DNA from: a virus
Taxonomy: Duplodnaviria; Heunggongvirae; Uroviricota; Caudoviricetes
DNA length: 12,227 nt
Direction: 5' to 3' (one strand)
IMG/VR virus record: IMGVR_UViG_2671180903_000014
Span: 1-12,227 of that record
The notes below the pieces were generated by a model that was not told the DNA's origin, searched no databases, and saw nothing but the letters and a program-made list of their open reading frames with translations. Each line of letters starts with the position of its first letter. Positions within the stretch are counted from its first letter, which is position 1. A program made the position numbers and the translations under genes. Below, one piece after another: positions 1-9,208 of this stretch.

Positions 1-1461
1 ATGAAAAAATTACTGCATCTTTTTTTCCCGCTCTCGCTGCGGGTACGTTTTCTGTTAGCAACGGCAGCAGTAGTATTGGTGCTTTCGCTTGCCTACGGAA
101 TGGTTGCGCTGATCGGTTATAGCGTCAGTTTCGATAAAACCACGTTTCGGCTGTTACGTGGCGAGAGCAATCTGTTCTATACCCTTGCGAAGTGGGAAAA
201 CAATAAGTTGCATGTCGAGTTACCCGAAAATATCGACAAGCAAAGCCCCACCATGACGCTAATTTATGATGAGAACGGGCAGCTTTTATGGGCGCAACGT
301 GACGTGCCCTGGCTGATGAAGATGATCCAGCCTGACTGGCTGAAATCGAATGGTTTTCATGAAATTGAAGCGGATGTTAACGATACCAGCCTCTTGCTGA
401 GTGGAGATCATTCTATACAGCAACAGTTGCAGGAAGTGCGGGAAGATGATGACGACGCGGAGATGACCCACTCGGTGGCGGTAAACGTCTACCCGGCAAC
501 ATCGCGGATGCCAAAGTTAACCATTGTGGTGGTGGATACCATTCCGGTGGAGCTAAAAAGTTCCTATATGGTCTGGAGCTGGTTTATCTATGTGCTCTCA
601 GCCAATCTGCTGTTAGTGATCCCGCTGCTGTGGGTCGCCGCCTGGTGGAGTTTACGCCCCATCGAAGCCCTGGCAAAAGAAGTCCGCGAACTGGAAGAAC
701 ATAACCGCGAATTGCTCAATCCAGCCACAACGCGAGAACTGACCAGTCTGGTACGAAACCTGAACCGACTGTTAAAAAGTGAACGCGAACGTTACGACAA
801 ATATCGTACGACGCTCACCGACCTGACCCATAGTCTGAAAACGCCACTGGCGGTGCTGCAAAGTACGCTGCGTTCTCTGCGTAGTGAGAAGATGAGCGTC
901 AGTGATGCTGAGCCGGTAATGCTGGAGCAAATCAGCCGCATTTCACAGCAAATTGGCTACTACCTGCATCGTGCCAGTATGCGCGGCGGGACATTGCTTA
1001 GCCGCGAGCTGCATCCGGTCGCCCCACTGCTGGACAATCTCACCTCGGCGCTGAACAAAGTGTATCAACGCAAAGGGGTCAATATCTCTCTCGATATTTC
1101 GCCAGAGATCAGCTTTGTCGGTGAGCAGAACGATTTTGTCGAGGTGATGGGCAACGTGCTGGATAATGCCTGTAAATATTGCCTCGAGTTTGTCGAAATA
1201 TCTGCAAGGCAAACAGACGAGCATCTCTATATTGTGGTCGAGGATGATGGCCCCGGTATTCCCTTAAGCAAGCGAGAGGTCATTTTCGACCGTGGTCAAC
1301 GGGTTGATACTTTACGCCCTGGGCAAGGTGTAGGGCTGGCGGTAGCCCGCGAAATCACCGAGCAGTATGAGGGTAAAATCGTCGCCGGAGAGAGCATGCT
1401 GGGCGGTGCGCGGATGGAGGTGATTTTTGGTCGCCAGCATTCTGCGCCGAAAGATGAATAA
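1..1461 (+). CDS. phoQ: Sensor histidine kinase PhoQ of the PhoP/PhoQ two-component system
   Basis: 486-aa ORF with N-terminal transmembrane segment, periplasmic acidic patch EDDDDAE, second transmembrane segment, HAMP region, H-box [12 protein letters not shown] and ATPase motifs (DNACKY, DDGPGI, GQGVGL); matches enterobacterial PhoQ from memory. Confidence 0.95.
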
Positions 1462-1972
1462 ATATGTCCTTTTATCACCACAGCAAGGCAACCAATTGAT
1501 TTAATTAAACAACTCACACTGCAAAAAGTGCTAAAAACAGCAAATTGACTACACCATTAACTACACCGTTCGGTGCACTGTATGAAACAACGTTGAACAA
1601 ATAGACACAAGAAATATACAGGCGGGTAATCTTTCCAGGGGGAAGCGCACCAATTCATGAGGGGCGTTAATGTCGATATGGGGATCCCCATAACGGGGCT
1701 ACCAGATTTTTTTTCCGGTTAACTGTTAATCAGGCTGGTGGGCTTTACCTGTTCGGTAGGTGTTATGATTATCGTAATACCTTTCCCCCAATGGGGTAAA
1801 AGCTCCAACCGTAACGATGTTCGTTATGGTTGCCTTGATGGTCTGAGTGGTCATTTTGACCATTCAGCCAATGACCTTAATCAGAATTTTTCGCTAAAAA
1901 ATGACGTTGGCCACGTCATCCGGAAAGCACAAAATCACGTCGATTTTTAATGAACGGTTAAACCGTCTTTTT

Positions 1973-2007
1973 GTCACGGTGTGTCACTGGTTGTCACTCT
2001 CCGTCAC
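1973..2007. repeat. Four direct copies of (T)GTCAC spaced exactly 10 bp apart
   Basis: GTCAC at 1973, 1983, 1993 and 2003, in non-coding DNA downstream of phoQ; resembles tandem arm-type recombinase sites (lambda Int arm consensus contains AGTCAC) or another phased binding array. Confidence 0.6.
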
Positions 2008-2096
2008 GATTGAGGTGGTGGACATTCTGCCCGACCGCGCATTTTTGCGCTATCGGGAATATCAAACAGTTACCGCGCCGACTTCCTCAAATTGAG

Positions 2097-2239
2097 GTTT
2101 CCGAAAATATCAGCGGGTTAGCGATTAAGCTGACGAGTAATTAAACTGCGAAAATTTCGTAGTTTGTGACTATCTGAAAGATAGTCGGTTGTTCCGGCCT
2201 CAGCCGTTGGCTGTTTCCGAAAATATCAGTAGGTTAGGC
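2097..2239. repeat. Pair of ~26-bp direct repeats (GTTTCCGAAAATATCAG..GGTTAG) 115 bp apart
   Basis: 2097-2124 and 2212-2239 differ at 2-3 positions; palindromes lie between them (GACTATCT-gaa-AGATAGTC at 2169-2187; CCAAAGCTCA-aaaa-TGAGCTTTGG at 2240-2263). Confidence 0.6.
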
Positions 2240-2277
2240 CAAAGCTCAAAAATGAGCTTTGGAACAATATCAACAAG

Positions 2278-2559
2278 TTACCGCCGTAACCGCTCCGGCT
2301 TCTTCCAGTGGTACGTAATTTTCTCCGTTTCCCGATACAGTGCCACGCGGCGATTGTAGGCCAGCATTTCAAGAACGCGGATCCGTATGTTGCGCATATC
2401 CACATCATTAAGCTGGATACCATCACGGCGCATCACCTCAGCAACAACACGCGCATAATTTTCGGCTGTCACGCTGTCCGGCTGCGTGGCCTGTTCGTCA
2501 GTCTGCTGGCTGATTCCACCAGCACGGCGGATTAATCCCAGTATTTCGGCTTCTGTCAT
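2278..2559 (-). CDS. Hypothetical 93-aa protein
   Basis: ATG at 2559 with upstream GGGTG; charged, protein-like composition; the overlapping plus-strand ORF looks like antisense. No family recognised. Confidence 0.4.
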   Translation of the reverse strand: MTEAEILGLIRRAGGISQQTDEQATQPDSVTAENYARVVAEVMRRDGIQLNDVDMRNIRIRVLEMLAYNRRVALYRETEKITYHWKKPERLRR

Positions 2560-2592
2560 TGTGCACCCATCGTTCTGATTGTCTGGTGTCGT

Positions 2593-2795
2593 CGGGTCCT
2601 TCCTGGAATTATGGACCCGTTACGGGGCGGCGACCTCGCGGTTTTTATCTGTTTATGAAAATTTTCCGGCAAAAGTCAGATCCGTTCTTCTTCTCTGTAA
2701 CAGACTGTTTAACAATGAAAATATTAAAAAAAGAAAGGATCTGACACGAGGCATTTTAGCCAGAAAATGCCATTATCAGATCCTTTCTCATTTTT
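2593..2795 (+). other. Lambda-type cos site 'cos-A' (cosQ, cosN, cosB) in plus orientation
   Basis: GGGTCCTTCC..GTTACG|GGGCGGCGACCT|CGCGGTTTTT..TTATGAAAATTTTCCGG..CCGTTCTTCTTC closely follows the lambda right-end/left-end junction as recalled; the 12-nt cohesive-end sequence is at 2625-2636. Three R-site-like repeats GATCC(G/T)TTCT follow (2681-2695 plus, 2730-2745 inverted, 2777-2789 plus), with an A/T-rich IHF-like stretch between the first two. Confidence 0.8.
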
Positions 2796-2815
2796 GTTCA
2801 ATAATTGCGCGTCTG

Positions 2816-3358
2816 TTACTCGCCTTTCTTCTGTAGCAACTTTTCCGGTACGTTTCCGGTTGTTTCTTTCAAGTAATCAGCCAGTATCTGTGGGAGGTTG
2901 TCGGCAACTCTGGCACTGGCATTACAGGCTTTAACCACTTCCCTTTTAAGCCTATCCAGCATGGCGGGGGTAATCTGTGGGAAGCTCCTTTGCATAGTAA
3001 GCGGGAGGCTGTCCATGATTGATGAAATCTGACTCGCCAGCTTTGAAAGCGCGTACAGGCAAAACTCAGTATCAATCACGTCACCGCGATCGCGCTCGTT
3101 TTTAAGTTCCTGCGCCTCCGCCTGTGCTGTCAGTAATCTGATCCTGACTCGTAAGAGTTCATCATCATCAATATCGCCTTTGTCGTTTGTAAGCTGGCTA
3201 ATTGCATTGTTAACCCTATTGTCTATCACGCTGGCAACATCATAAAACGCCTCACGGCCTTTACGTTCAACGGGAGTCACTCCCCACTTGTCGAACGCTG
3301 TCGCACTTACACGGCAGCTTTTCGCCATGTTTTTTTTGTTCATCAGGTGCGATTTCAT
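2816..3358 (-). CDS. Terminase small subunit, lambda Nu1-like
   Basis: Residues LLTAQAEAQELKNERDRGDVIDTEFCLYALSKLASQISSIMDSLPLTMQRSFP align with lambda Nu1 (LTRAQADAQELKNARDSAEVVETAFCTFVLSRIAGEIASILDGLPLSVQRRFP); N-terminus NKK..W..G..PV matches the Nu1 DNA-binding region. Start may be ATG 3358 or ATG 3343. Confidence 0.85.
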   Translation of the reverse strand: MKSHLMNKKNMAKSCRVSATAFDKWGVTPVERKGREAFYDVASVIDNRVNNAISQLTNDKGDIDDDELLRVRIRLLTAQAEAQELKNERDRGDVIDTEFCLYALSKLASQISSIMDSLPLTMQRSFPQITPAMLDRLKREVVKACNASARVADNLPQILADYLKETTGNVPEKLLQKKGE

Positions 3359-3399
3359 TAATACACCAACTTAATTACTGCTTCAGGTTGGTGTATTGT

Positions 3400-3534
3400 T
3401 TGCATCTTTCCCTTTTTATTCATAAAGATAGATCAAACAACGAAACCACCACCCCCCCCCTGAAAAGGCTCATAAATAGCGAAAAACCGCTAGGTCGCCG
3501 CCCCGTAACGGGCCATAATTCCAGGAAGGACCCG
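3400..3534 (-). other. Second lambda-type cos site 'cos-B' (cosQ, cosN, degenerate cosB) in minus orientation
   Basis: Minus strand reads GGGTCCTTCCTGGAATTATGGCCCGTTACG|GGGCGGCGACCT|AGCGGTTTTTCGCTATTTATGA and then diverges, including a G9 run; cohesive-end sequence at 3492-3503. The 53-bp stretch 3482-3534 is an inverted repeat of 2593-2646 with one mismatch and one 1-bp indel. Confidence 0.75.
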
Positions 3535-3535
3535 T

Positions 3536-3557
3536 AAAAAAGCCGGATTTCTCCGGC
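3536..3557 (-). terminator. Rho-independent terminator after the 137-aa gene
   Basis: Minus strand GCCGGAGAAATCCGGC hairpin followed by TTTTTT; 6 bp past the stop of the 137-aa ORF. Confidence 0.7.
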
Positions 3558-3563
3558 CTTGTC

Positions 3564-3977
3564 TCAGATGGTTTTCAGTATGCGATCGATGTCGCCGTCA
3601 TCGCCCTGGTTTCTGCCATCGTATGCCATGCCAGCTGATACGGCTTGCGGGCTGTGCATGTCCATAAAGTTTTCAAAGGCTGCGGTAAGTTCCGGCGCAA
3701 CCTTCGGACGTTCCTGCTCTATGGTCATGCTAAGGATGCTTTTAGCCGTACCAACATCGATACAAGGCACGTTTGCCATTGCACGCAACAGCGGCTGATA
3801 GTCTTTATGCTCATGAAGCGCCATAATCGCATCAGCGCGCGGCTTGTCCTGCTCTTCCAGTTTGTTTAGTTGATATACGGCCTCATAGGTTGATAAACCT
3901 CTGTCAGCCATTGCCCGCGCTTCGACTTTAAATTTACTCGCCAGCGGTAGCGTCATGATGCTTTCATTCGTTGCCAT
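3564..3977 (-). CDS. Hypothetical 137-aa acidic protein, last gene of the capsid operon
   Basis: Strong RBS (AGGGGGA) before ATG 3977; 12 bp after the gpD-like stop; followed by a terminator. No family recognised; not lambda FI or W by recalled sequence. Confidence 0.55.
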   Translation of the reverse strand: MATNESIMTLPLASKFKVEARAMADRGLSTYEAVYQLNKLEEQDKPRADAIMALHEHKDYQPLLRAMANVPCIDVGTAKSILSMTIEQERPKVAPELTAAFENFMDMHSPQAVSAGMAYDGRNQGDDGDIDRILKTI

Positions 3978-3989
3978 CGTTCCCCCTGC

Positions 3990-4325
3990 TTATCGGGCCA
4001 GCGGCTGAACGGATACGCCGGAACCCGCAAAGGCGGCGCATTTTTTCGCATCGGTGTCGACGCTCTCAGGCCAGTTAACGGCGGCAATATTGAATATCCC
4101 CGTCTTGTAACACTGTGCTGATTTCTGCTTTGACGTGCCCACAGGGTACGAGGTCAGATAAACAGCCTTGCCAGATTCCTGACCATCCCACGGCTTAAAC
4201 TCGCCATTGTCTGCCAGCATCAGCGGGGTAAATTCCTGAATAACGCCAGCATCAGCGGCAAAATGTACCAACGTCGTGGATACCTGCTGACTGCCTGCAA
4301 ATAACTCAATGTATGGAGTGTCCAT
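3990..4325 (-). CDS. Head decoration protein, lambda gpD family
   Basis: 111 aa; TPLML, WDG, YKTGIF, WPE and AFAG motifs align with lambda gpD (TPLML..WDG..YKSGTF..WPE..AFAG); RBS GGGGGGA. Confidence 0.85.
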   Translation of the reverse strand: MDTPYIELFAGSQQVSTTLVHFAADAGVIQEFTPLMLADNGEFKPWDGQESGKAVYLTSYPVGTSKQKSAQCYKTGIFNIAAVNWPESVDTDAKKCAAFAGSGVSVQPLAR

Positions 4326-4337
4326 AGAATCCCCCCG

Positions 4338-5393
4338 TTAACCAATTTTGACGGTAACAAATTTGCGAATATCTGCCGGTACCGGCTGCGGTGCACTGTG
4401 TGTCTGCACGTACTCAATCGCCGGATCGCCGTCCTCAATCCAGTTTTTCGGGTAAAACATGTTTTGTGTTGCGCCCGTTCTTACCGCTTCCTGATCCATT
4501 ATCGCACCATAGGCCACCAGCCCTTTATTGTTGGTGTTACCCAGGACCAGCAAATCAGGCTCAAGGAAATATTTTTCGGTACCATCGCTGTCAGTGTATT
4601 TGCCGGAATAGACGATAAGGGCCAGATCACCAAGATAGCCTTTAAAGCTCACCACTTCGCCCAGGTTTTTACAGGCCAGTTCGGCGGCGGATTCTGAACC
4701 ACGGGAAAGATCGTACAGCTCACGGAATTTTTTAAAGCTGCCTAATGTGCGCCATACCTCAGCGCCCATAATCATGACGTTTGCGGGGCAACCAGCCTGA
4801 TCAGCATAAAGCTCGATGTCATAGATTGGGTCGTGCATGTCTTTATCCTGCTCGGACCATTTTTTACCCTTGGCCTGCTCTATGATGCAGTTTTCCGGTA
4901 TTTTCCAGTCGATTTCATAGCGTTCTATGCCTTCGCCCTCAATGATGTTTTTTCCGGTCGTTACCGCATTCACCGCCAGCCATTCCACGCGTGCCTTAAT
5001 GGCGTTTATCTGGCGGCGCATGTTGCCAGTAATCAGGCGCATACGGCGATAGGTAGGGTCGTTAAGCTGTGCCGGATCTTCTCCAGCCATGCGCATGATG
5101 GTTTTCGTTGGATCGATTTCGTGCTTTGGCTTCATGTAGCCAGGTTTGATTGTGCTGGTTTCGTACCCTTTATCGCGCTGAACCTGGCTACCCACCATAG
5201 GCGAACAAAACGCCGACATGGTGACTTCTTCAATGTCCAGGGTATCCAGCATGATGTTTTGCGTGCTGAATGTCGCCACGTTCGGGAAAAACAGCGTGGT
5301 AAACAGAGGGCTGAATTTAAAATCCGCAATATCCCCGCGATTCAGGTACATGAAAAGCTGGTTAGTGTTAAGTGCCGTTGCTTTGCCTGCCAT
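4338..5393 (-). CDS. Major capsid protein, lambda gpE family
   Basis: 351 aa; collinear with lambda gpE (FKF.PLF..LFF, PGY.KPKHE, DP.YRR.R, RDK..DP..DIE.YA, YKG..GD.A.VYSG, VLGNT, YPKNW, GDPA.E); RBS GGGGGTGA. Confidence 0.9.
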   Translation of the reverse strand: MAGKATALNTNQLFMYLNRGDIADFKFSPLFTTLFFPNVATFSTQNIMLDTLDIEEVTMSAFCSPMVGSQVQRDKGYETSTIKPGYMKPKHEIDPTKTIMRMAGEDPAQLNDPTYRRMRLITGNMRRQINAIKARVEWLAVNAVTTGKNIIEGEGIERYEIDWKIPENCIIEQAKGKKWSEQDKDMHDPIYDIELYADQAGCPANVMIMGAEVWRTLGSFKKFRELYDLSRGSESAAELACKNLGEVVSFKGYLGDLALIVYSGKYTDSDGTEKYFLEPDLLVLGNTNNKGLVAYGAIMDQEAVRTGATQNMFYPKNWIEDGDPAIEYVQTHSAPQPVPADIRKFVTVKIG

Positions 5394-5599
5394 TATTCAC
5401 CCCCATAATTTTTATGCATCCCAAGCGCCGCAAGTAAATAAGAGCGTACAAGTGAACCTATCGACGGCTCCGGCGTCATCAGCGGATCCAGTCCAGCCGC
5501 AACGCCAGCTTCATAGTTTTTTTTGTGGCGCTGCTTGAGCACCTCCACGATTTCGGGGCTTATGTACACCGAAACACCGCCTTTTTTCTCTTCAGCCAT
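5393..5599 (-). CDS. Hypothetical 68-aa protein, first gene of the capsid operon
   Basis: ATG at 5599 preceded by AAGAGGAA; its stop overlaps the capsid start codon (TAATG), suggesting translational coupling. No family recognised. Confidence 0.45.
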   Translation of the reverse strand: MAEEKKGGVSVYISPEIVEVLKQRHKKNYEAGVAAGLDPLMTPEPSIGSLVRSYLLAALGMHKNYGGE

Positions 5600-5633
5600 A
5601 GTAAGAAATTCCTCTTCGACTAAAAAAATCATA

Positions 5634-5684
5634 ACTGGATGTTTATCCAGTCCTGATTATAATCAGAATTGCATTTTATGCAAT
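5634..5684 (-). promoter_or_regulatory. Sigma70-like promoter overlapped by three adjacent palindromic operators
   Basis: Minus-strand -35 TTGCAT (5683-5678), 16-bp spacer, -10 TATAAT (5661-5656). Palindromes: ACTGGAT-gttt-ATCCAGT (5634-5651), CTGATTATAATCAG (5653-5666), ATTGCAT-ttt-ATGCAAT (5668-5684). Confidence 0.55.
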
Positions 5685-5764
5685 GATATTGAGTTATGTT
5701 GCAAATTATGAAATGATTATCCCGATCACGAACGCCAGTGCATCCAAAAACCTCATATGCAAAA

Positions 5765-5830
5765 GCCCGATAAGAACCCTCTGACCTTATCGGGCTTTTT
5801 TTGGGCGCAAAAAAGCCGGATTGCTCCGGC
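5765..5830. terminator. Tandem terminators between the 74-aa gene and the capsid promoter
   Basis: Hairpin GCCCGATAAG..CTTATCGGGC with T7 on the plus side and A4 on the other (5765-5802), then minus-strand GCCGGAGCAATCCGGC plus T6 (5809-5830). Confidence 0.65.
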
Positions 5831-5850
5831 TATGTGTGCTGTGTGCTGGC

Positions 5851-6075
5851 TCAGTCTCTGATCTCTTTCAGAAATTCTATCAATGCATCTATCTGTTCAG
5901 GATTTACCGCCAGCATTTCACCGGATAGAGCACATCTCACAAAACCATGCTGATCCTTTTCAATCAGTGCGCCCGTCTCCAGGAATGCGCGGTAATCATT
6001 GATGCTCATCGTCTCCATGTTGTCAGCATGGTATTTATCACGCTGTTTTAATATCTCATCAAATTTCATCGGCAT
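5851..6075 (-). CDS. Hypothetical 74-aa protein, monocistronic between terminators
   Basis: ATG at 6075 preceded by AGAGGAAAAA; terminators on both sides. No family recognised; only one Cys, so not an Ogr/Delta zinc finger. Confidence 0.5.
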   Translation of the reverse strand: MPMKFDEILKQRDKYHADNMETMSINDYRAFLETGALIEKDQHGFVRCALSGEMLAVNPEQIDALIEFLKEIRD

Positions 6076-6171
6076 TGTTTTTTTCCTCTGTTGTGTCTGT
6101 TTGTTTCAGATAGTAACTATGCCTGACCGTGACGAAAACCCGGTAATGCGCCATACCGTTTCAACTGGTGC

Positions 6172-6194
6172 AAAAAAAGCCGGATTTCTCCGGC
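6172..6194 (-). terminator. Rho-independent terminator after the PerC-like gene
   Basis: Minus strand GCCGGAGAAATCCGGC followed by T7; near-identical to the terminators at 3536-3557 and 5809-5830. Confidence 0.7.
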
Positions 6195-6201
6195 TGTTTG
6201 A

Positions 6202-6474
6202 TTAGCTGTCCTGGTAATTGCGCCATATTTCATCACCAGCACCATCTATACCCATTTCGGCATAAGTGCGATCGACTGCCTTTTTCAGGTCTCCGAAATT
6301 ATCCGGCGGCTCCGGTGCCCTCTGTGCCTTCCTTGAACATTCCAGCCGTCGCATCGTGATGTGATGCCGTTCCTTGTCTGTCTCCACCAGCTGCATGACT
6401 TCACCCCATCGCGCCGCCGCCCTCCGGTAAAAGCCTTTCGCCTCCAGTTCCTCCGCTATGCGGTCATGTACCAT
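6202..6474 (-). CDS. Small PerC-family-like regulator (about 90 aa)
   Basis: Start taken at ATG 6474 (MVHDRIAEELEAKGFYRRAAARWGEVM), 11 nt after the SSB stop with GGGGGTG as RBS; the A..LE..G.YRRAA.RW motif resembles PerC-family proteins from memory. The longer 130-aa ORF call would overlap SSB. Confidence 0.45.
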   Translation of the reverse strand: MVHDRIAEELEAKGFYRRAAARWGEVMQLVETDKERHHITMRRLECSRKAQRAPEPPDNFGDLKKAVDRTYAEMGIDGAGDEIWRNYQDS

Positions 6475-6484
6475 CGTCACCCCC

Positions 6485-6895
6485 TCAGAACGAAATATCA
6501 TCACCGTAAGAGTCATCGCCTCCCGCTGGTGGCTGATTACCCTGTGTGCCTGTGGTTTTGCGTCTGTTCCCGCCTGGACGTGCCGCGCGGGCACTGATTA
6601 CGCTGTCTGCGATAACCTGCCAGCCCTGCCGCGTTTCTCCGTTCTGTCCGGTCCACTGGCTTACCTGCATCGTGCCGGATACGCTGGCAACATCGCCTTT
6701 TTGATGTTTAGCCAGGAAGTCGGCCTGTTTGCCAAATGCGATGACCGATAACCATAACGTCGCCTGTCCGTCCTGTGCCTGGCTGCATGGCAAAGATACC
6801 GCCATACGCGCCAGCGTCATCGGTGTGCCCTTGCTGGTCTGTTTTACCTGCGGGTCGTCCACCAGCCGCCCGTAAGCGGCTATCTGTGCCGTCAT
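6485..6895 (-). CDS. Single-stranded DNA-binding protein, SSB-like
   Basis: 136 aa; OB-fold-like N-terminal region, Gly/Pro/Gln-rich linker and acidic C-terminal tip GDDISF (compare E. coli SSB DDDIPF). Confidence 0.65.
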   Translation of the reverse strand: MTAQIAAYGRLVDDPQVKQTSKGTPMTLARMAVSLPCSQAQDGQATLWLSVIAFGKQADFLAKHQKGDVASVSGTMQVSQWTGQNGETRQGWQVIADSVISARAARPGGNRRKTTGTQGNQPPAGGDDSYGDDISF

Positions 6896-7143
6896 AATTC
6901 CACCTCTCCGGTTTTAACGTTGATGGTTGTTACCTGTTCCGCTTCGGCAATCTCCCGTTCTGTCAGCGTGGCAAAGTTTGCCGCCGCCGTGGTCATGAAT
7001 GCGCTTATCAGGTCGGGATGTTCCTTCGCGTATCCTTCCCGCGTGTGGCGGTCTATCGTTCTGATTGCCACCTTTAAGGTGTGCTCAGTCATGTCTAACG
7101 CTTTATATTTTGGCTCTGTTCTGTCTCTGCGTTTTTGGGTCAT
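6892..7143 (-). CDS. Hypothetical small protein between the origin and ssb
   Basis: The longest ORF begins at a GTG (7173) inside the iteron array; ATG 7143 or ATG 7092 are more plausible starts. Stop overlaps the ssb start (ATGA). Confidence 0.35.
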   Translation of the reverse strand: MTQKRRDRTEPKYKALDMTEHTLKVAIRTIDRHTREGYAKEHPDLISAFMTTAAANFATLTEREIAEAEQVTTINVKTGEVEL

Positions 7144-7149
7144 TTCTCG

Positions 7150-7350
7150 CAACCTCTCACTTTTTCGCCTCACTTTTTCAAGCGTCTCACTTCGTCGCAG
7201 TTGGGATTTTCGGTTTTTCTATGTGTGTGTTTCATAAGTATTTTTTTACCCCTCACTTTTGAGGATGTATACAGGTCGAAAAGTGAGGGAGAGCGGGCTA
7301 ATTTTGGCCCTCTTTCTATCCCCCTCGCTTTTGCTCCTCACTTTTATAGC
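7150..7350. repeat. Iteron array with a central A/T-rich stretch; candidate replication origin
   Basis: Seven copies of CCTCAC(T/G)TTT (7156, 7169, 7186, 7250, 7323, 7337 direct; 7279 inverted) flanking an A/T-rich stretch at 7201-7248, immediately 3' of the rep gene. Confidence 0.6.
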
Positions 7351-8743
7351 GGCGCTACATCATCCCCATCGATACGAATAACCCCATCTTTTTCCAGCTT
7401 GTACAGCCAGCGCCGGAAGTTTTTCATTTCATACCCCAGCTTTTTCATGTCATCACGTAACAGCGGGATCGTGCACTTGTCGCCGTTCTGTGTGCGTGAA
7501 CGGATGCACCCCCATAGCGCGGTATGGTTTTCCGTCTTGTTCCCTGCCTCCTCGATGCGCTCCAGTTCAACAGGAGGGCGCGGATCATCCACCACCACCA
7601 GCGACGTGATTAATTCACCGTCAGCGTCGGTAAAAAGCTCCACCACGCGTAAGTCATATGCGGCTTCTTTGAGTTCCTCCGCGTCCTTCATTTTGGTGCA
7701 TGAGATAACCAGCGCTTCGCTTCCTGCGTCCTCCCTGCGTATCCGGTATTCAGCATCCAGCGAAGCACGAAATGCACTGGAACCGCGCGCGCCTTTCGTC
7801 TCATCCTTGCCGGAATGGTGAACCACCAGCACCGTGGCCCCTGTGCGTCGTTTCAGTTCGTCACAACCACGGATAAACGCCCCATATCACGGGAATCATT
7901 TTCATCATTCCCACCAAAGCAACGCGCCAGCGTATCCAGAATAATCATGCGTACAGGTTTACCCGTTTCCCGCTCCACCTGACGGGCAGCGATAACCATT
8001 TCATCAACATCAAGCGGGGCAGCCGGAAAGATGGGGCGGTTTACCAGATACAGATTTTTCACCTGCTCATCGTGCACAACCTCCCAGGCTTTTACACGAC
8101 GCGGAACACCTATACCGCCTTCACCAACCACATAGAGAACCGCACCATGTGCAACCCTGCGGCCTCCCCACTGGCGACCAGTGGCAACATGGCACGCCCA
8201 CGATCCGGCAAGGAATGATTTATAGGACCCGCTAGCCCCGTATATGCTGCATAGCGATACCGCCGGAATAATCCCCTTAACCACGTAATCCAGTTGCGTG
8301 TCGTATCCGGTAGATCCAACGCTCATCGGTAGCGTGGTTTTTCGCTGGTGGTTTTTTTCTTCCGCCGGCTCTTTCCCGCGCACCCGTTCCAGGTATTCGC
8401 GCCAGTTCTCCCGCATATGGCTGTGCATCCCTTCGGGGTAATAATTCGCATCAGTTACACCCGCCGCCGCCAGCTTGTGCGCAATGGCATTAATATTTGA
8501 TGGCCTGATGTGGCCTGCCTTGTACAGCCGGACACAATAGCGCCCCTCGTCGATGATTCTCAGGTCTGCCAGTTCATCCAGTTGATCATCAGCCAGCACA
8601 ACGGGAGGCACATTATCGCCAGCCAGTCGCCCGTCCTGTTCCTGCCACTGTTTCGCATGTGCCCAGGCATCACTACCCGCAAAAATAATGACTTCGGTCA
8701 TCTTGTCGTAAGGCTGTTTTTTTAAGTTCGGTGCGCTTTTCAT
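7344..8743 (-). pseudogene. RepA-like AAA ATPase (RecA-fold replication helicase) split by a frameshift
   Basis: The upstream ORF (8743-7853) ends ..ILDTLARCFGGNDENDSRDMG; the downstream ORF continues in another frame with AFIRGCDELKRRTGATVLVVHHSGKDETKG. Joined, they give the typical DEN..M......L....G..VL.VHH..K motif. The frames meet in the C4/G4 run at 7880-7883; one extra G would restore a ~470-aa protein. Confidence 0.75.
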
Positions 8744-8761
8744 TTCTTGCCCCTGAATCCG

Positions 8762-9208
8762 TTAAAATCTGGCCTGAACTGCCGGAGGCGTAGGCCATTC
8801 AATATCTGGCGCACTGGAGGTATCAACCAGCTCCAGTGCATCCAGATAATCCAGCCACAAATTATATTGCGCCAGTTCCTCACCTTTCAGACGACCAATA
8901 GCGGCTTTACCGGGCCATTGCTTACTGTTCATGTATTCGTTGGCCTGGTTAATTAGTAGCTGTCTTTCTGATTCAGTAATTTCAATAAGCTCTTCATGCG
9001 TGGGTGGAGGAATATCTGCCCACGCAGGCAGCCCATCATCTCCGGCAATACGGATTTTTCCTTGTGGCGGTTCAGCCATAAACTCACTGATAATATTTTG
9101 ATTTACTTCCTTAGCGTCTGATAAATCCCATCCCTCTGATTTATATTTATCAATCATATCCACAGGGAAAAAAGCATTATGCCTTGCGCTATAAACATAT
9201 TCGTTCAT
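8762..9208 (-). CDS. Tail fibre assembly protein (Tfa)
   Basis: N-terminus MNEYVYSARHNAFFP and C-terminus ..VDTSSAPDIEWPTPP match Tfa proteins (lambda Tfa ends ..VDTSTAPDIEWP); RBS AGGGTGA before ATG 9208. The longest ORF starts at a GTG (9217). Confidence 0.85.
   Translation of the reverse strand: MNEYVYSARHNAFFPVDMIDKYKSEGWDLSDAKEVNQNIISEFMAEPPQGKIRIAGDDGLPAWADIPPPTHEELIEITESERQLLINQANEYMNSKQWPGKAAIGRLKGEELAQYNLWLDYLDALELVDTSSAPDIEWPTPPAVQARF

What the first reader, a model, noticed from the sequence alone, without database searches (positions are those of the whole stretch)
3564..5599. Two unknown small proteins bracket the capsid and decoration genes in one operon
The 68-aa gene is translationally coupled to the capsid gene, and the 137-aa acidic gene follows the decoration gene with a strong RBS. 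Neither resembles lambda Nu3, W, FI or FII by recalled sequence. In satellites such co-encoded small proteins are typically scaffolds or capsid-size redirectors, or inhibitors of helper assembly.
Basis: inference. Interest (0 to 1): 0.55.

Follow-up and report, generated by a model that had tools for sequence, protein, structure and literature searches.

The report
Satellite capsid operon with own scaffold
The two small genes lie in the capsid operon of a well-known E. coli phage satellite (EcCICFT073 / O-island 51 family): the 137-aa protein is a relative of the phage lambda scaffolding protein Nu3, and the 68-aa protein is a satellite-only protein whose function is still unknown.

Summary
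On the minus strand, a 68-aa gene (5599-5393), a gpE-like capsid gene, a gpD-like decoration gene and an acidic 137-aa gene (3977-3564) form one unit between two copies of the same terminator hairpin.

The unit belongs to a phage-inducible chromosomal island (PICI) of the EcCICFT073 / O157 OI-51 family, inserted beside phoQ. The four genes are orthologues of CFT073 c1498-c1501.

The 137-aa protein does resemble lambda Nu3. It matches the C-terminal scaffold part of lambdoid S49 prohead proteases and phage genes annotated Nu3, and the model is helical with a disordered acidic linker and a terminal helix. I read it as the cognate internal scaffold of the satellite's own capsid protein.

The 68-aa protein has no phage, Pfam or PDB relative. 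It is under purifying selection, and its stop always overlaps the capsid start (TAATG). Its strand-helix-helix pattern only hints at a ribbon-helix-helix fold.

A conserved promoter with a LexA-box-like site precedes the operon.

Published work found no lambda interference from c1499-c1501. Replacing c1498-c1501 with cas9 still allowed transfer, so "inhibitor of helper assembly" is not supported.

This is an annotation gain in a known element. What the module does biologically remains open.

The parts
5806..5835 (-). Terminator hairpin (AGCCGGAGCAATCCGGCT + T-run) ending the upstream 74-aa gene unit; marks the upstream edge of the capsid operon
   Evidence: repeat family D1
5656..5683 (-). Promoter-like site: TTGCAT (5683-5678), 16 nt, TATAAT (5661-5656). 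It lies in a ~100-nt block that is more conserved than the coding sequence across E. coli and Salmonella elements
   Evidence: read from sequence; alignment; 80-locus table. The consensus scanner did not report it because the -35 matches only 3 of 6
5635..5650 (.). LexA-box-like palindrome CTGGATAAACATCCAG (CTG-N10-CAG), starting 5 nt after the -10 and covering the expected transcription start
   Evidence: one exact match; 0.35 expected by chance at up to 1 mismatch; kept in nearly all related loci; LexA binding is inferred
5393..5599 (-). 68-aa protein (orthologue of CFT073 c1498): PICI-specific, function unknown, strand-helix-helix pattern, stop overlaps the capsid start
   Evidence: (phrog_3255)
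4338..5393 (-). gpE-like major capsid protein, 351 aa (orthologue of c1499)
3990..4325 (-). gpD-like head decoration protein, 111 aa (orthologue of c1500)
3564..3977 (-). 137-aa acidic Nu3-type scaffolding-protein homologue (orthologue of c1501)
3533..3562 (-). Terminator hairpin (GGCCGGAGAAATCCGGCT + T6) closing the four-gene operon
   Evidence: D1
3459..3534 (-). cos site copy (cosQ-like sequence plus cosN GGGCGGCGACCT) directly after the operon
   Evidence: the two cos sites of EcCICFT073 are described in PMC6092414
2816..3358 (-). Nu1-like small terminase, 180 aa. It occupies the slot that holds RppA (c1503) in EcCICFT073
2593..2669 (+). Second cos copy, inverted relative to the first

Best explanation
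Window 5835-3533 is the head-shell operon of an EcCICFT073 / OI-51-type PICI. It encodes a satellite-specific clade of gpE-like capsid protein, a gpD-like decoration protein, and the capsid protein's own internal scaffold, which is the 137-aa protein.

The 137-aa protein is a stand-alone relative of lambda Nu3. It has two helical units of the motif I-M-x-L...P-x-x-x-V-x-x-A-x-x-I-L, an F-E-x-F-M-x-x-H-S-P segment, a disordered acidic linker, and a short C-terminal helix (IDRILKTI; lambda has VNDLLNTPV). By analogy with Nu3 and other scaffolds, that helix would dock on the capsid protein.

The operon has no portal, protease or large terminase, so any shell it builds must use the helper's.

The 68-aa protein is made in step with the capsid protein because the genes overlap (TAATG). 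Its N-terminal strand followed by two helices looks like a ribbon-helix-helix protein. My best guess is a small dimeric DNA-binding regulator of this operon or of the helper-satellite switch.

Transcription most likely starts at a conserved TTGCAT-16-TATAAT promoter that a LexA-like box overlaps. The module would then switch on with the SOS response, as SaPI operon I does.

Shown: gene structure, homologies, conservation and selection.
Inferred: scaffold-capsid pairing, LexA control, and the fold and role of the 68-aa protein.
For: Element identity: the same insertion site (roxA/phoQ) and gene order as CFT073 and O55:H7. Identity to c1498-c1501 is 68, 96, 97 and 97%.

Scaffold:
- The 137-aa protein matches phrog_1999 over its full length, and matches the C-terminal end of phrog_53 (head maturation protease) at E 6e-9.
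- Lambda Nu3 hits phrog_1999 at E 2.7e-26.
- BLASTP E 5e-11 to P0066. P0066 in turn matches lambda Nu3 at E 2e-16.
- BLASTP E 3e-10, 37% identity, to the C-terminus of the S49 protease of the CFT073 lambdoid prophage at icd.
- tblastn against 50,697 phages hits only features annotated Nu3.
- AlphaFold model: pLDDT above 90 for residues 11-80, all-helical, disordered 111-126, terminal helix 128-135.
- The capsid's nearest phage relatives (47% identity) are the same PhiR12 phages whose Nu3 best matches the 137-aa protein.

68-aa protein:
- Purifying selection: dN/dS 0.08-0.43, pooled 0.32.
- The TAATG junction is conserved everywhere.
- Model: extended 8-14, helices 15-34 and 47-58.
- Sub-threshold Pfam RHH_1 and BrnA hits for single family members.

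Regulation: conserved promoter block and CTG-N10-CAG box. One natural variant (ATACAG) weakens the hairpin but moves the site closer to the LexA consensus.
Against: - Direct comparison of the 137-aa family with lambda Nu3 itself is weak (BLASTP not significant; hhalign E 0.013). The link runs through intermediate lambdoid sequences.
- No solved structure exists to confirm the fold.
- Published genetics on the orthologues show no phenotype. Deleting c1499 or c1500 did not change transfer or interference, packaged DNA was phage-sized (PMC6092414), and the c1498-c1501::cas9 island still transfers (PMC10530653). A shell-building role has therefore never been observed.
- Its two alleles (69% identical) do not track the variants of the nearby palindrome.
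- The LexA-like box is absent in the divergent element L008.
Confidence: 0.6

Rival explanations
1. The 68-aa protein is a capsid-assembly cofactor (chaperone, nucleator or size determinant in the manner of SaPI1 CpmB). It would bind the satellite capsid protein stoichiometrically and would not be a DNA-binding regulator.
For: - The TAATG translational coupling to the capsid gene is kept across about 45% protein divergence in E. coli, L008 and Salmonella.
- It is found only next to PICI capsid genes and never in 50,697 phage genomes.
- At lineage level it is present or absent together with the Nu3-like gene.
- It is near-neutral in charge.
Against: - Two alleles only 69% identical sit on capsid genes that are 90-100% identical to the window's, so it does not co-vary with its supposed partner.
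- Its conserved C-terminal G-x-E is explained by the overlapping capsid SD.
- EcCICFT073 gave only phage-sized packaged DNA with lambda (PMC6092414).
- Its strand/S-P/helix pattern resembles ribbon-helix-helix proteins.
Confidence: 0.25
2. The four-gene block is a functionless remnant (a decaying piece of a lambdoid prophage or of a capsid-forming PICI), and the small ORFs have no role.
For: - No phenotype for c1499 or c1500 deletions.
- The block can be replaced by cas9 without losing transfer.
- The authors call it the 'adaptable module' (PMC6092414, PMC10530653).
- Natural deletions of the 137-aa gene occur (L019, L039, L046, L083) and a 93-aa internal-deletion form exists.
Against: - All four genes are under purifying selection (pN/pS 0.11-0.32).
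- The block is intact in 598 complete genomes and in most of the 80 IMG/VR loci (65-80 of 80 per gene).
- The promoter region is more conserved than the coding sequence between E. coli and Salmonella.
- The architecture survives 45-50% protein divergence.
Confidence: 0.1
3. The small proteins inhibit helper head assembly.
For: Satellites often carry such inhibitors. A scaffold homologue with a Nu3-like C-terminus could in principle compete for the helper capsid protein (alignment).
Against: - pBAD18 clones of c1499, c1500 and c1501 did not reduce lambda plaques.
- Only c1503 (RppA) did, and deleting c1503 restored lambda plating (PMC6739421; clone list confirmed).
- The 68-aa gene was not among the clones, so it is untested.
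Confidence: 0.08
4. The 137-aa protein is a head-tail connector, as many NCBI records name it.
For: NCBI and UniRef names: 'phage head-tail connector protein' and 'Putative head-tail preconnector protein from prophage'.
Against: - No Pfam or NCBIfam connector family matches.
- In this dataset 'head-tail preconnector protein' is attached to phage Nu3 genes (feature names); from my own knowledge it is an older name for the lambda C/Nu3 products. The label therefore points to the same homology and has drifted.
- The model is a helical scaffold-like protein with a long disordered tail.
Confidence: 0.03

Closest known systems
EcCICFT073 (E. coli CFT073 PICI) genes c1498-c1501; the same family as O157:H7 O-island 51 / CP-933C
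   Same: Same integration site (roxA/phoQ). Same order: 68 aa, capsid, decoration, 137 aa, cos, packaging gene, cos, 93-aa gene. Identities 68, 96, 97 and 97%.
   Different: The window's element carries a 180-aa Nu1-like small terminase where EcCICFT073 has RppA. It has the other allele of the 68-aa gene. It is itself a remnant: the helicase gene is broken, and the int/alpA end is replaced by e14-like DNA.
Lambda Nu3 / C-terminal scaffold region of lambdoid S49 prohead proteases (gpC)
   Same: Shared motif units, the F-E-x-F-M-x-x-H-S-P segment, the acidic tail and the C-terminal hydrophobic helix. Similar size (137 aa against 131 aa). Encoded next to the D and E homologues.
   Different: A stand-alone gene, not nested in frame inside a protease gene. 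It lies after E and D rather than before them. It has two motif units where lambda has one and some prophage proteases have three. It is only 37-39% identical to the closest phage proteins. HMMER over 1.8 billion representative proteins found only 8 relatives.
SaPIbov5 Ccm and SaPI1 CpmB/CpmA (satellite-encoded capsid homologue and small internal scaffold)
   Same: A satellite carries its own capsid-protein homologue and a small helical scaffold-type protein. SaPI operon I is also LexA-controlled (as cited in PMC6092414).
   Different: No sequence relationship was found. For EcCICFT073 no small capsids and no interference from these genes were seen with lambda (PMC6092414, PMC6739421).
Capsid-forming PICIs (cf-PICI, e.g. 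EcCIEDL933)
   Same: A satellite with its own head genes and related int, alpA and rep genes (bioRxiv 10.1101/2022.09.08.507074).
   Different: cf-PICIs carry a full head and packaging set: portal, protease, connectors, HNH, TerS and TerL. Here there are only the shell (E, D), a scaffold and TerS or Rpp.
Helper-embedded PICIs of the 11capE type (PMC10111431)
   Same: gpE-like capsid followed by a gpD-like decoration gene inside a PICI.
   Different: That lineage lacks both the 68-aa gene and the Nu3-like gene and has a different upstream region.

Membership tests
Nu3-type internal scaffolding proteins (lambda Nu3 / gpC C-terminal region) | Significant sequence similarity to the Nu3 region | tested here: met
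   BLASTP E 3e-10 to the C-terminus of a lambdoid prophage S49 protease. tblastn E 4e-5 to phage Nu3 genes in a 2.3-Gb database. Lambda Nu3 hits the query's own PHROG at 2.7e-26. The direct match to lambda Nu3 itself is weak.
Nu3-type internal scaffolding proteins (lambda Nu3 / gpC C-terminal region) | Small, helical, acidic protein with a flexible tail and a terminal helix | tested here: met
   pI 5.0. AlphaFold: six helices, disordered 111-126, helix 128-135.
Nu3-type internal scaffolding proteins (lambda Nu3 / gpC C-terminal region) | Encoded as the in-frame C-terminal part of the prohead protease gene | tested here: not met
   Stand-alone ORF 3977-3564. No S49 peptidase is present in the window or in the intact elements.
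Nu3-type internal scaffolding proteins (lambda Nu3 / gpC C-terminal region) | Enters the procapsid with the capsid protein and is removed on maturation | not testable with these tools
   Needs co-expression with electron microscopy, or proteomics.
Ribbon-helix-helix DNA-binding proteins (68-aa protein) | N-terminal strand followed by two helices | tested here: inconclusive
   The monomer model shows an extended segment 8-14 and helices 15-34 and 47-58, pLDDT 74. The loop between the helices is longer than in classic members.
Ribbon-helix-helix DNA-binding proteins (68-aa protein) | Significant profile or structure match to a ribbon-helix-helix family | tested here: not met
Ribbon-helix-helix DNA-binding proteins (68-aa protein) | Dimerises and binds repeated DNA sites | not testable with these tools
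   Candidate sites (TTGCA repeats, the TGATTATAATCA palindrome) lie upstream, but binding is unknown.
Gram-negative PICI, EcCICFT073 type | Synteny and sequence identity with EcCICFT073 in the replication-to-packaging region, at the roxA/phoQ site | tested here: met
Gram-negative PICI, EcCICFT073 type | Integrase, AlpA and an intact replication gene in the same element | tested here: not met
   The window's copy stops at about 8766 and continues into e14-like DNA. The helicase gene is split (7344-7832 and 7853-8743). Intact relatives have int, alpA and a 466-aa helicase.
Capsid-forming PICI (cf-PICI) | Own portal, protease, head-tail connectors and large terminase | tested here: not met
   None of these is in the window or in the intact O55:H7 and CFT073 elements.
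Satellite capsid-size redirectors (CpmB, Sid, Ccm, TcaP) | Production of small capsids / helper interference that depends on the gene | not testable with these tools
   Literature on the orthologues: phage-sized packaged DNA, and no interference from c1499-c1501 (PMC6092414, PMC6739421). The 68-aa gene is untested.
LexA-regulated (SOS) operon | CTG-N10-CAG box overlapping the promoter | tested here: met
   CTGGATAAACATCCAG at 5650-5635, 5 nt after TATAAT. Conserved in related loci. LexA binding itself was not tested.

The most novel reading that the evidence does not exclude
EcCICFT073-type PICIs could be 'shell-forming' satellites, intermediate between classical PICIs and capsid-forming PICIs. 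With their natural helpers they would build their own gpE/gpD shell on the helper's portal, using their own Nu3-like scaffold. That scaffold might also recruit the helper's protease through the shared motif units. The 68-aa protein would then be a new kind of assembly or size factor made in step with the capsid protein. The published lack of phenotype would reflect the laboratory helpers and read-outs used.
Probability: 0.15. Interest if true: 0.7.

Novelty: new member of a known kind. Interest (0 to 1): 0.35.

Why it matters
About 11% of complete E. coli genomes, including O157:H7 and O55:H7, carry this block. The papers I read report no phenotype for its capsid gene.

Recognising that the block is a self-consistent shell kit (capsid, decoration and cognate scaffold), apparently wired to the SOS response, turns "why does a classical PICI keep a capsid gene?" into concrete experiments.

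It also corrects a misleading database label ("head-tail connector") and marks the 68-aa protein as the one member of the block that has never been tested.

Tried and rejected
1. Direct BLASTP and hhalign of the 137-aa family against lambda gpC/Nu3 were weak. The link needed intermediates.
2. HMMER of the 137-aa protein against 1.8 billion representatives gave only 8 hits, so the family is narrow.
3. PDB sequence and fold searches for both proteins found nothing significant.
4. NCBIfam and PADLOC found no family for either small protein.
5. The 68-aa profile found no homologue in the lambda head region, in 50 kb of CFT073 chromosome that includes the lambdoid prophage at icd, or in an 11capE-type locus.
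6. A genome-contig scan with the 68-aa alignment found nothing.
7. I tested whether the palindrome around the -10 co-varies symmetrically, or with the allele of the 68-aa gene. It does not: asymmetric variants are common.
8. I first read 'c1501::tetA' as a disruption of the 137-aa orthologue. The primer shows the cassette sits after the stop codon, so that gene is intact.
9. I first read the hairpin at 5652-5633 as an intrinsic terminator. The T-run is 5 nt away, and a natural variant breaks the stem while improving the LexA consensus, so I prefer a protein-binding site.
10. RgdR, the OI-51 regulator, is the 99-aa DUF4222 protein upstream of the replication gene and is neither small protein.
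11. The internal repeat of the 137-aa protein is not detectable by BLASTP of its two halves. It is inferred from the alignment to a three-repeat relative and from natural 93-aa deletion forms.
Full report
**What is in the window.** The window starts with phoQ (1-1461). A block of minus-strand genes follows:
- a 93-aa gene (2559-2278);
- a Nu1-like small terminase (3358-2816);
- the 137-aa gene (3977-3564);
- a gpD-like decoration gene (4325-3990);
- a gpE-like capsid gene (5393-4338);
- the 68-aa gene (5599-5393);
- a 74-aa gene, a PerC-family gene, an SSB gene, a 93-aa gene and a split RepA-type helicase gene.

From about 8766 the sequence is e14-like (tail-fibre assembly, tail-fibre fragment, pin, mcrA, icd fragment).

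**Checking the observation.**
- The 68-aa ORF has a good Shine-Dalgarno sequence. Its stop overlaps the capsid ATG (TAATG), and the capsid's own G-rich SD lies in its last codons.
- The same junction is present in every related locus examined. This probably explains the invariant C-terminal G-x-E of the protein.
- The 11-codon upstream extension (79-aa reading) is interrupted by a stop in many relatives, so 68 aa is the right call.
- The 137-aa protein is acidic (pI 5.0) and follows the decoration gene after 12 nt, with a GGGGGA SD.
- Copies of one terminator hairpin bracket the four genes, at 5835-5806 and 3562-3533. The four genes are therefore a discrete transcription unit.

**What the element is.** Megablast places window 1400-8765 at 98.9% identity in 347 complete E. 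coli genomes, including O157:H7 and O55:H7.
- In O55:H7 CB9615 the intact element lies between phoQ and roxA. It carries a tyrosine integrase, an AlpA-like regulator, Icd-like genes, a DUF4222 gene and a 466-aa helicase.
- CFT073 has the same element type at the same site. This is EcCICFT073, the model Gram-negative PICI.
- The supplement of PMC6092414 lists c1498 as 68 aa and c1501 as 137 aa. c1499 and c1500 are the capsid and decoration genes.
- That paper also equates this family with O157 O-island 51.
- RgdR, the regulator described on OI-51, is a 99-aa protein (c1493 in CFT073) and is not one of the two small proteins. By size and position it matches the DUF4222 gene.

**The 137-aa protein is a Nu3-type scaffold homologue.**
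- It matches phrog_1999 (unknown function) over its full length. It also matches the C-terminal end of phrog_53, head maturation protease, at E 6e-9.
- Lambda Nu3 hits phrog_1999 at E 2.7e-26.
- An exhaustive HMMER search found only 8 relatives. One of them (P0066, 195 aa) has three copies of a roughly 40-residue motif. It aligns to the query at E 5e-11 and to lambda Nu3 at E 2e-16.
- The query aligns directly to residues 416-493 of the 501-aa S49 prohead protease of the lambdoid prophage at icd in CFT073 (E 3e-10, 37% identity).
- A tblastn search of 50,697 phage genomes hits only six lambdoid phages, each under a feature annotated Nu3.
- The alignment shows a shared layout: motif unit(s), an F-E-x-F-M-x-x-H-S-P segment, an acidic stretch, and a C-terminal D-(I/V)-x-x-(I/L)-L-x-(T/S) helix.
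- The AlphaFold model is confidently helical to about residue 90, disordered at 111-126, and ends in a short helix.
- No solved structure resembles it. I take this to mean that no Nu3-type scaffold has been solved.
- The UniRef name 'head-tail preconnector protein' uses the same label that phage records attach to Nu3. From my own knowledge it is an older name for the lambda C/Nu3 products. The NCBI name 'head-tail connector protein' looks like a drifted version, and no NCBIfam model supports it.

**The 68-aa protein remains unassigned.**
- It belongs to phrog_3255 (unknown function). It has no Pfam, NCBIfam, PADLOC or PDB match.
- tblastn finds nothing in 50,697 phage genomes.
- Its profile finds nothing in the lambda head region, the CFT073 region holding the icd prophage, or an 11capE-type locus.
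- Homologues occur only in E. coli, Shigella and Salmonella.
- It is a real protein: dN/dS is 0.08-0.43 between lineages, and pooled pN/pS is 0.32.
- The model (pLDDT 74) has an extended segment at 8-14 followed by helices 15-34 and 47-58.
- The sequence V-S-V-Y-I-S-P-E-I-V-E-V-L resembles, from my own knowledge of Arc, CopG and MetJ, the strand-to-helix junction of ribbon-helix-helix proteins.
- Two alleles only 69% identical occur on capsid genes that are 90-100% identical to the window's. That argues against tight co-evolution with the capsid protein.

**Regulation.**
- The 100 nt upstream of the 68-aa gene are more conserved between E. coli and Salmonella than the gene itself.
- They contain TTGCAT, 16 nt, a perfect TATAAT inside a palindrome, and then CTGGATAAACATCCAG.
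- That last site fits the CTG-N10-CAG spacing of E. coli LexA boxes (consensus from my own knowledge).
- It is kept in nearly all of the roughly 80 loci. One variant, ATACAG, weakens the hairpin while approaching the LexA consensus.
- It is not kept in the divergent element L008.
- SaPI operon I is LexA-controlled (cited in PMC6092414). I found no mention of LexA control for EcCICFT073 in that paper.

**Conservation of the pairing.**
- The full block is in 598 of 5426 complete E. coli genomes at 90% identity or more.
- Across 80 IMG/VR loci the order is constant. A few loci lack the 137-aa gene or carry a 93-aa internal-deletion form.
- A divergent E. coli PICI at tRNA-Pro (L008; proteins 50-63% identical) keeps all four genes, with a 141-aa Nu3-like protein.
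- A Salmonella PICI keeps the 68-aa homologue, capsid and decoration genes. It has a 79-aa protein with a Nu3-like C-terminus.
- A second lineage of capsid-carrying PICIs lacks both small genes. This is the helper-embedded 11capE type, seen here in E. coli, Kluyvera, Cedecea, Superficieibacter and Kosakonia.
- The satellite capsid protein has no phage relative above 47% identity. Its closest phages are the ones whose Nu3 best matches the 137-aa protein. This fits joint descent of capsid and scaffold.

**What the literature says about function.**
- Deleting c1499 or c1500 changed neither lambda interference nor transfer, and EcCICFT073 DNA was packaged in phage-sized heads (PMC6092414).
- Clones of c1499, c1500, c1501 and the downstream genes did not inhibit lambda. 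Only c1503 (RppA) did (PMC6739421).
- The c1499 clone starts inside the 68-aa gene, so the 68-aa gene was never tested alone.
- The c1501::tetA marker sits after the stop codon.
- A synthetic island with c1498-c1501 replaced by cas9 was still packaged and delivered by a phi80 helper (PMC10530653).
- I found no paper linking PICIs and Nu3.

**Interpretation.** The block is a shell kit: capsid, decoration and cognate scaffold, plus a small satellite-specific protein. It probably switches on with the SOS response. It is dispensable in the laboratory assays done so far, yet it is clearly maintained by selection. The scaffold assignment is well supported by homology. The role of the 68-aa protein (regulator or assembly cofactor) and the biological purpose of the kit remain open.

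Noticed in passing
window 7344-8743 and about 8766: The PICI copy in this window is a remnant. Its RepA-type helicase gene is split into 162-aa and 296-aa ORFs (466 aa in O55:H7). The element ends at about 8766, where e14-like tfa/stf/pin/mcrA/icd' DNA begins in place of the DUF4222-alpA-int end. None of the 5426 complete E. coli genomes contains this junction.
   Followed up: partly
window 2593-2669 and 3459-3534: Two lambda-type cos copies (cosN GGGCGGCGACCT) in inverted orientation flank the small-terminase gene. The two cos sites of EcCICFT073 are described in PMC6092414; the inverted arrangement around the swappable packaging gene is worth noting.
   Followed up: partly
window 2816-3358; loci L009-L088: The slot after the operon holds a 180-aa Nu1-like TerS, or RppA, or neither, and never both. 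The packaging-specificity gene looks like an exchangeable cassette between the two cos copies.
   Followed up: partly
window 3533-3562, 5806-5835, 6170-6199: One terminator hairpin (AGCCGGAnnAATCCGGCT + T-run) occurs three times, separating the modules of the island.
   Followed up: no
loci L019, L039, L046, L083, L076, L086; proteins P0028, P0030, P0031: Natural variants lack the 137-aa gene or carry a 93-aa form in which the segment between the two RAMA motifs is deleted. This fits recombination between the two motif units.
   Followed up: partly
window 5393-5599 compared with L004 15462-15668: The 68-aa gene has two alleles 69% identical, next to capsid genes that are 90-100% identical to the window's. 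This implies a recombination breakpoint at or near the TAATG junction.
   Followed up: partly
L007, L089-L092: A second PICI capsid lineage (346-aa capsid, 113-aa decoration, 127-aa HTH protein) lacks both small genes. It occurs in Kluyvera, Cedecea, Superficieibacter and Kosakonia. In L007 and L090 it lies next to a fragment of a lambdoid capsid gene (helper-embedded type).
   Followed up: partly
window 5690-5720: Conserved TTGCA-containing repeats (ATTTGCAAC, ATTGCATAAAATGCAAT) lie upstream of the -10 in all lineages that have the 68-aa gene. They are candidate sites for an unknown regulator.
   Followed up: no
window 3564-3977: Many NCBI records name this protein 'phage head-tail connector protein' with no supporting family model. 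The label appears to be a drifted form of 'head-tail preconnector', the name phage records attach to Nu3.
   Followed up: yes
L005 10157-11025: The Salmonella element carries two tandem Rpp-like winged-helix genes (141 and 146 aa) after its capsid block.
   Followed up: no
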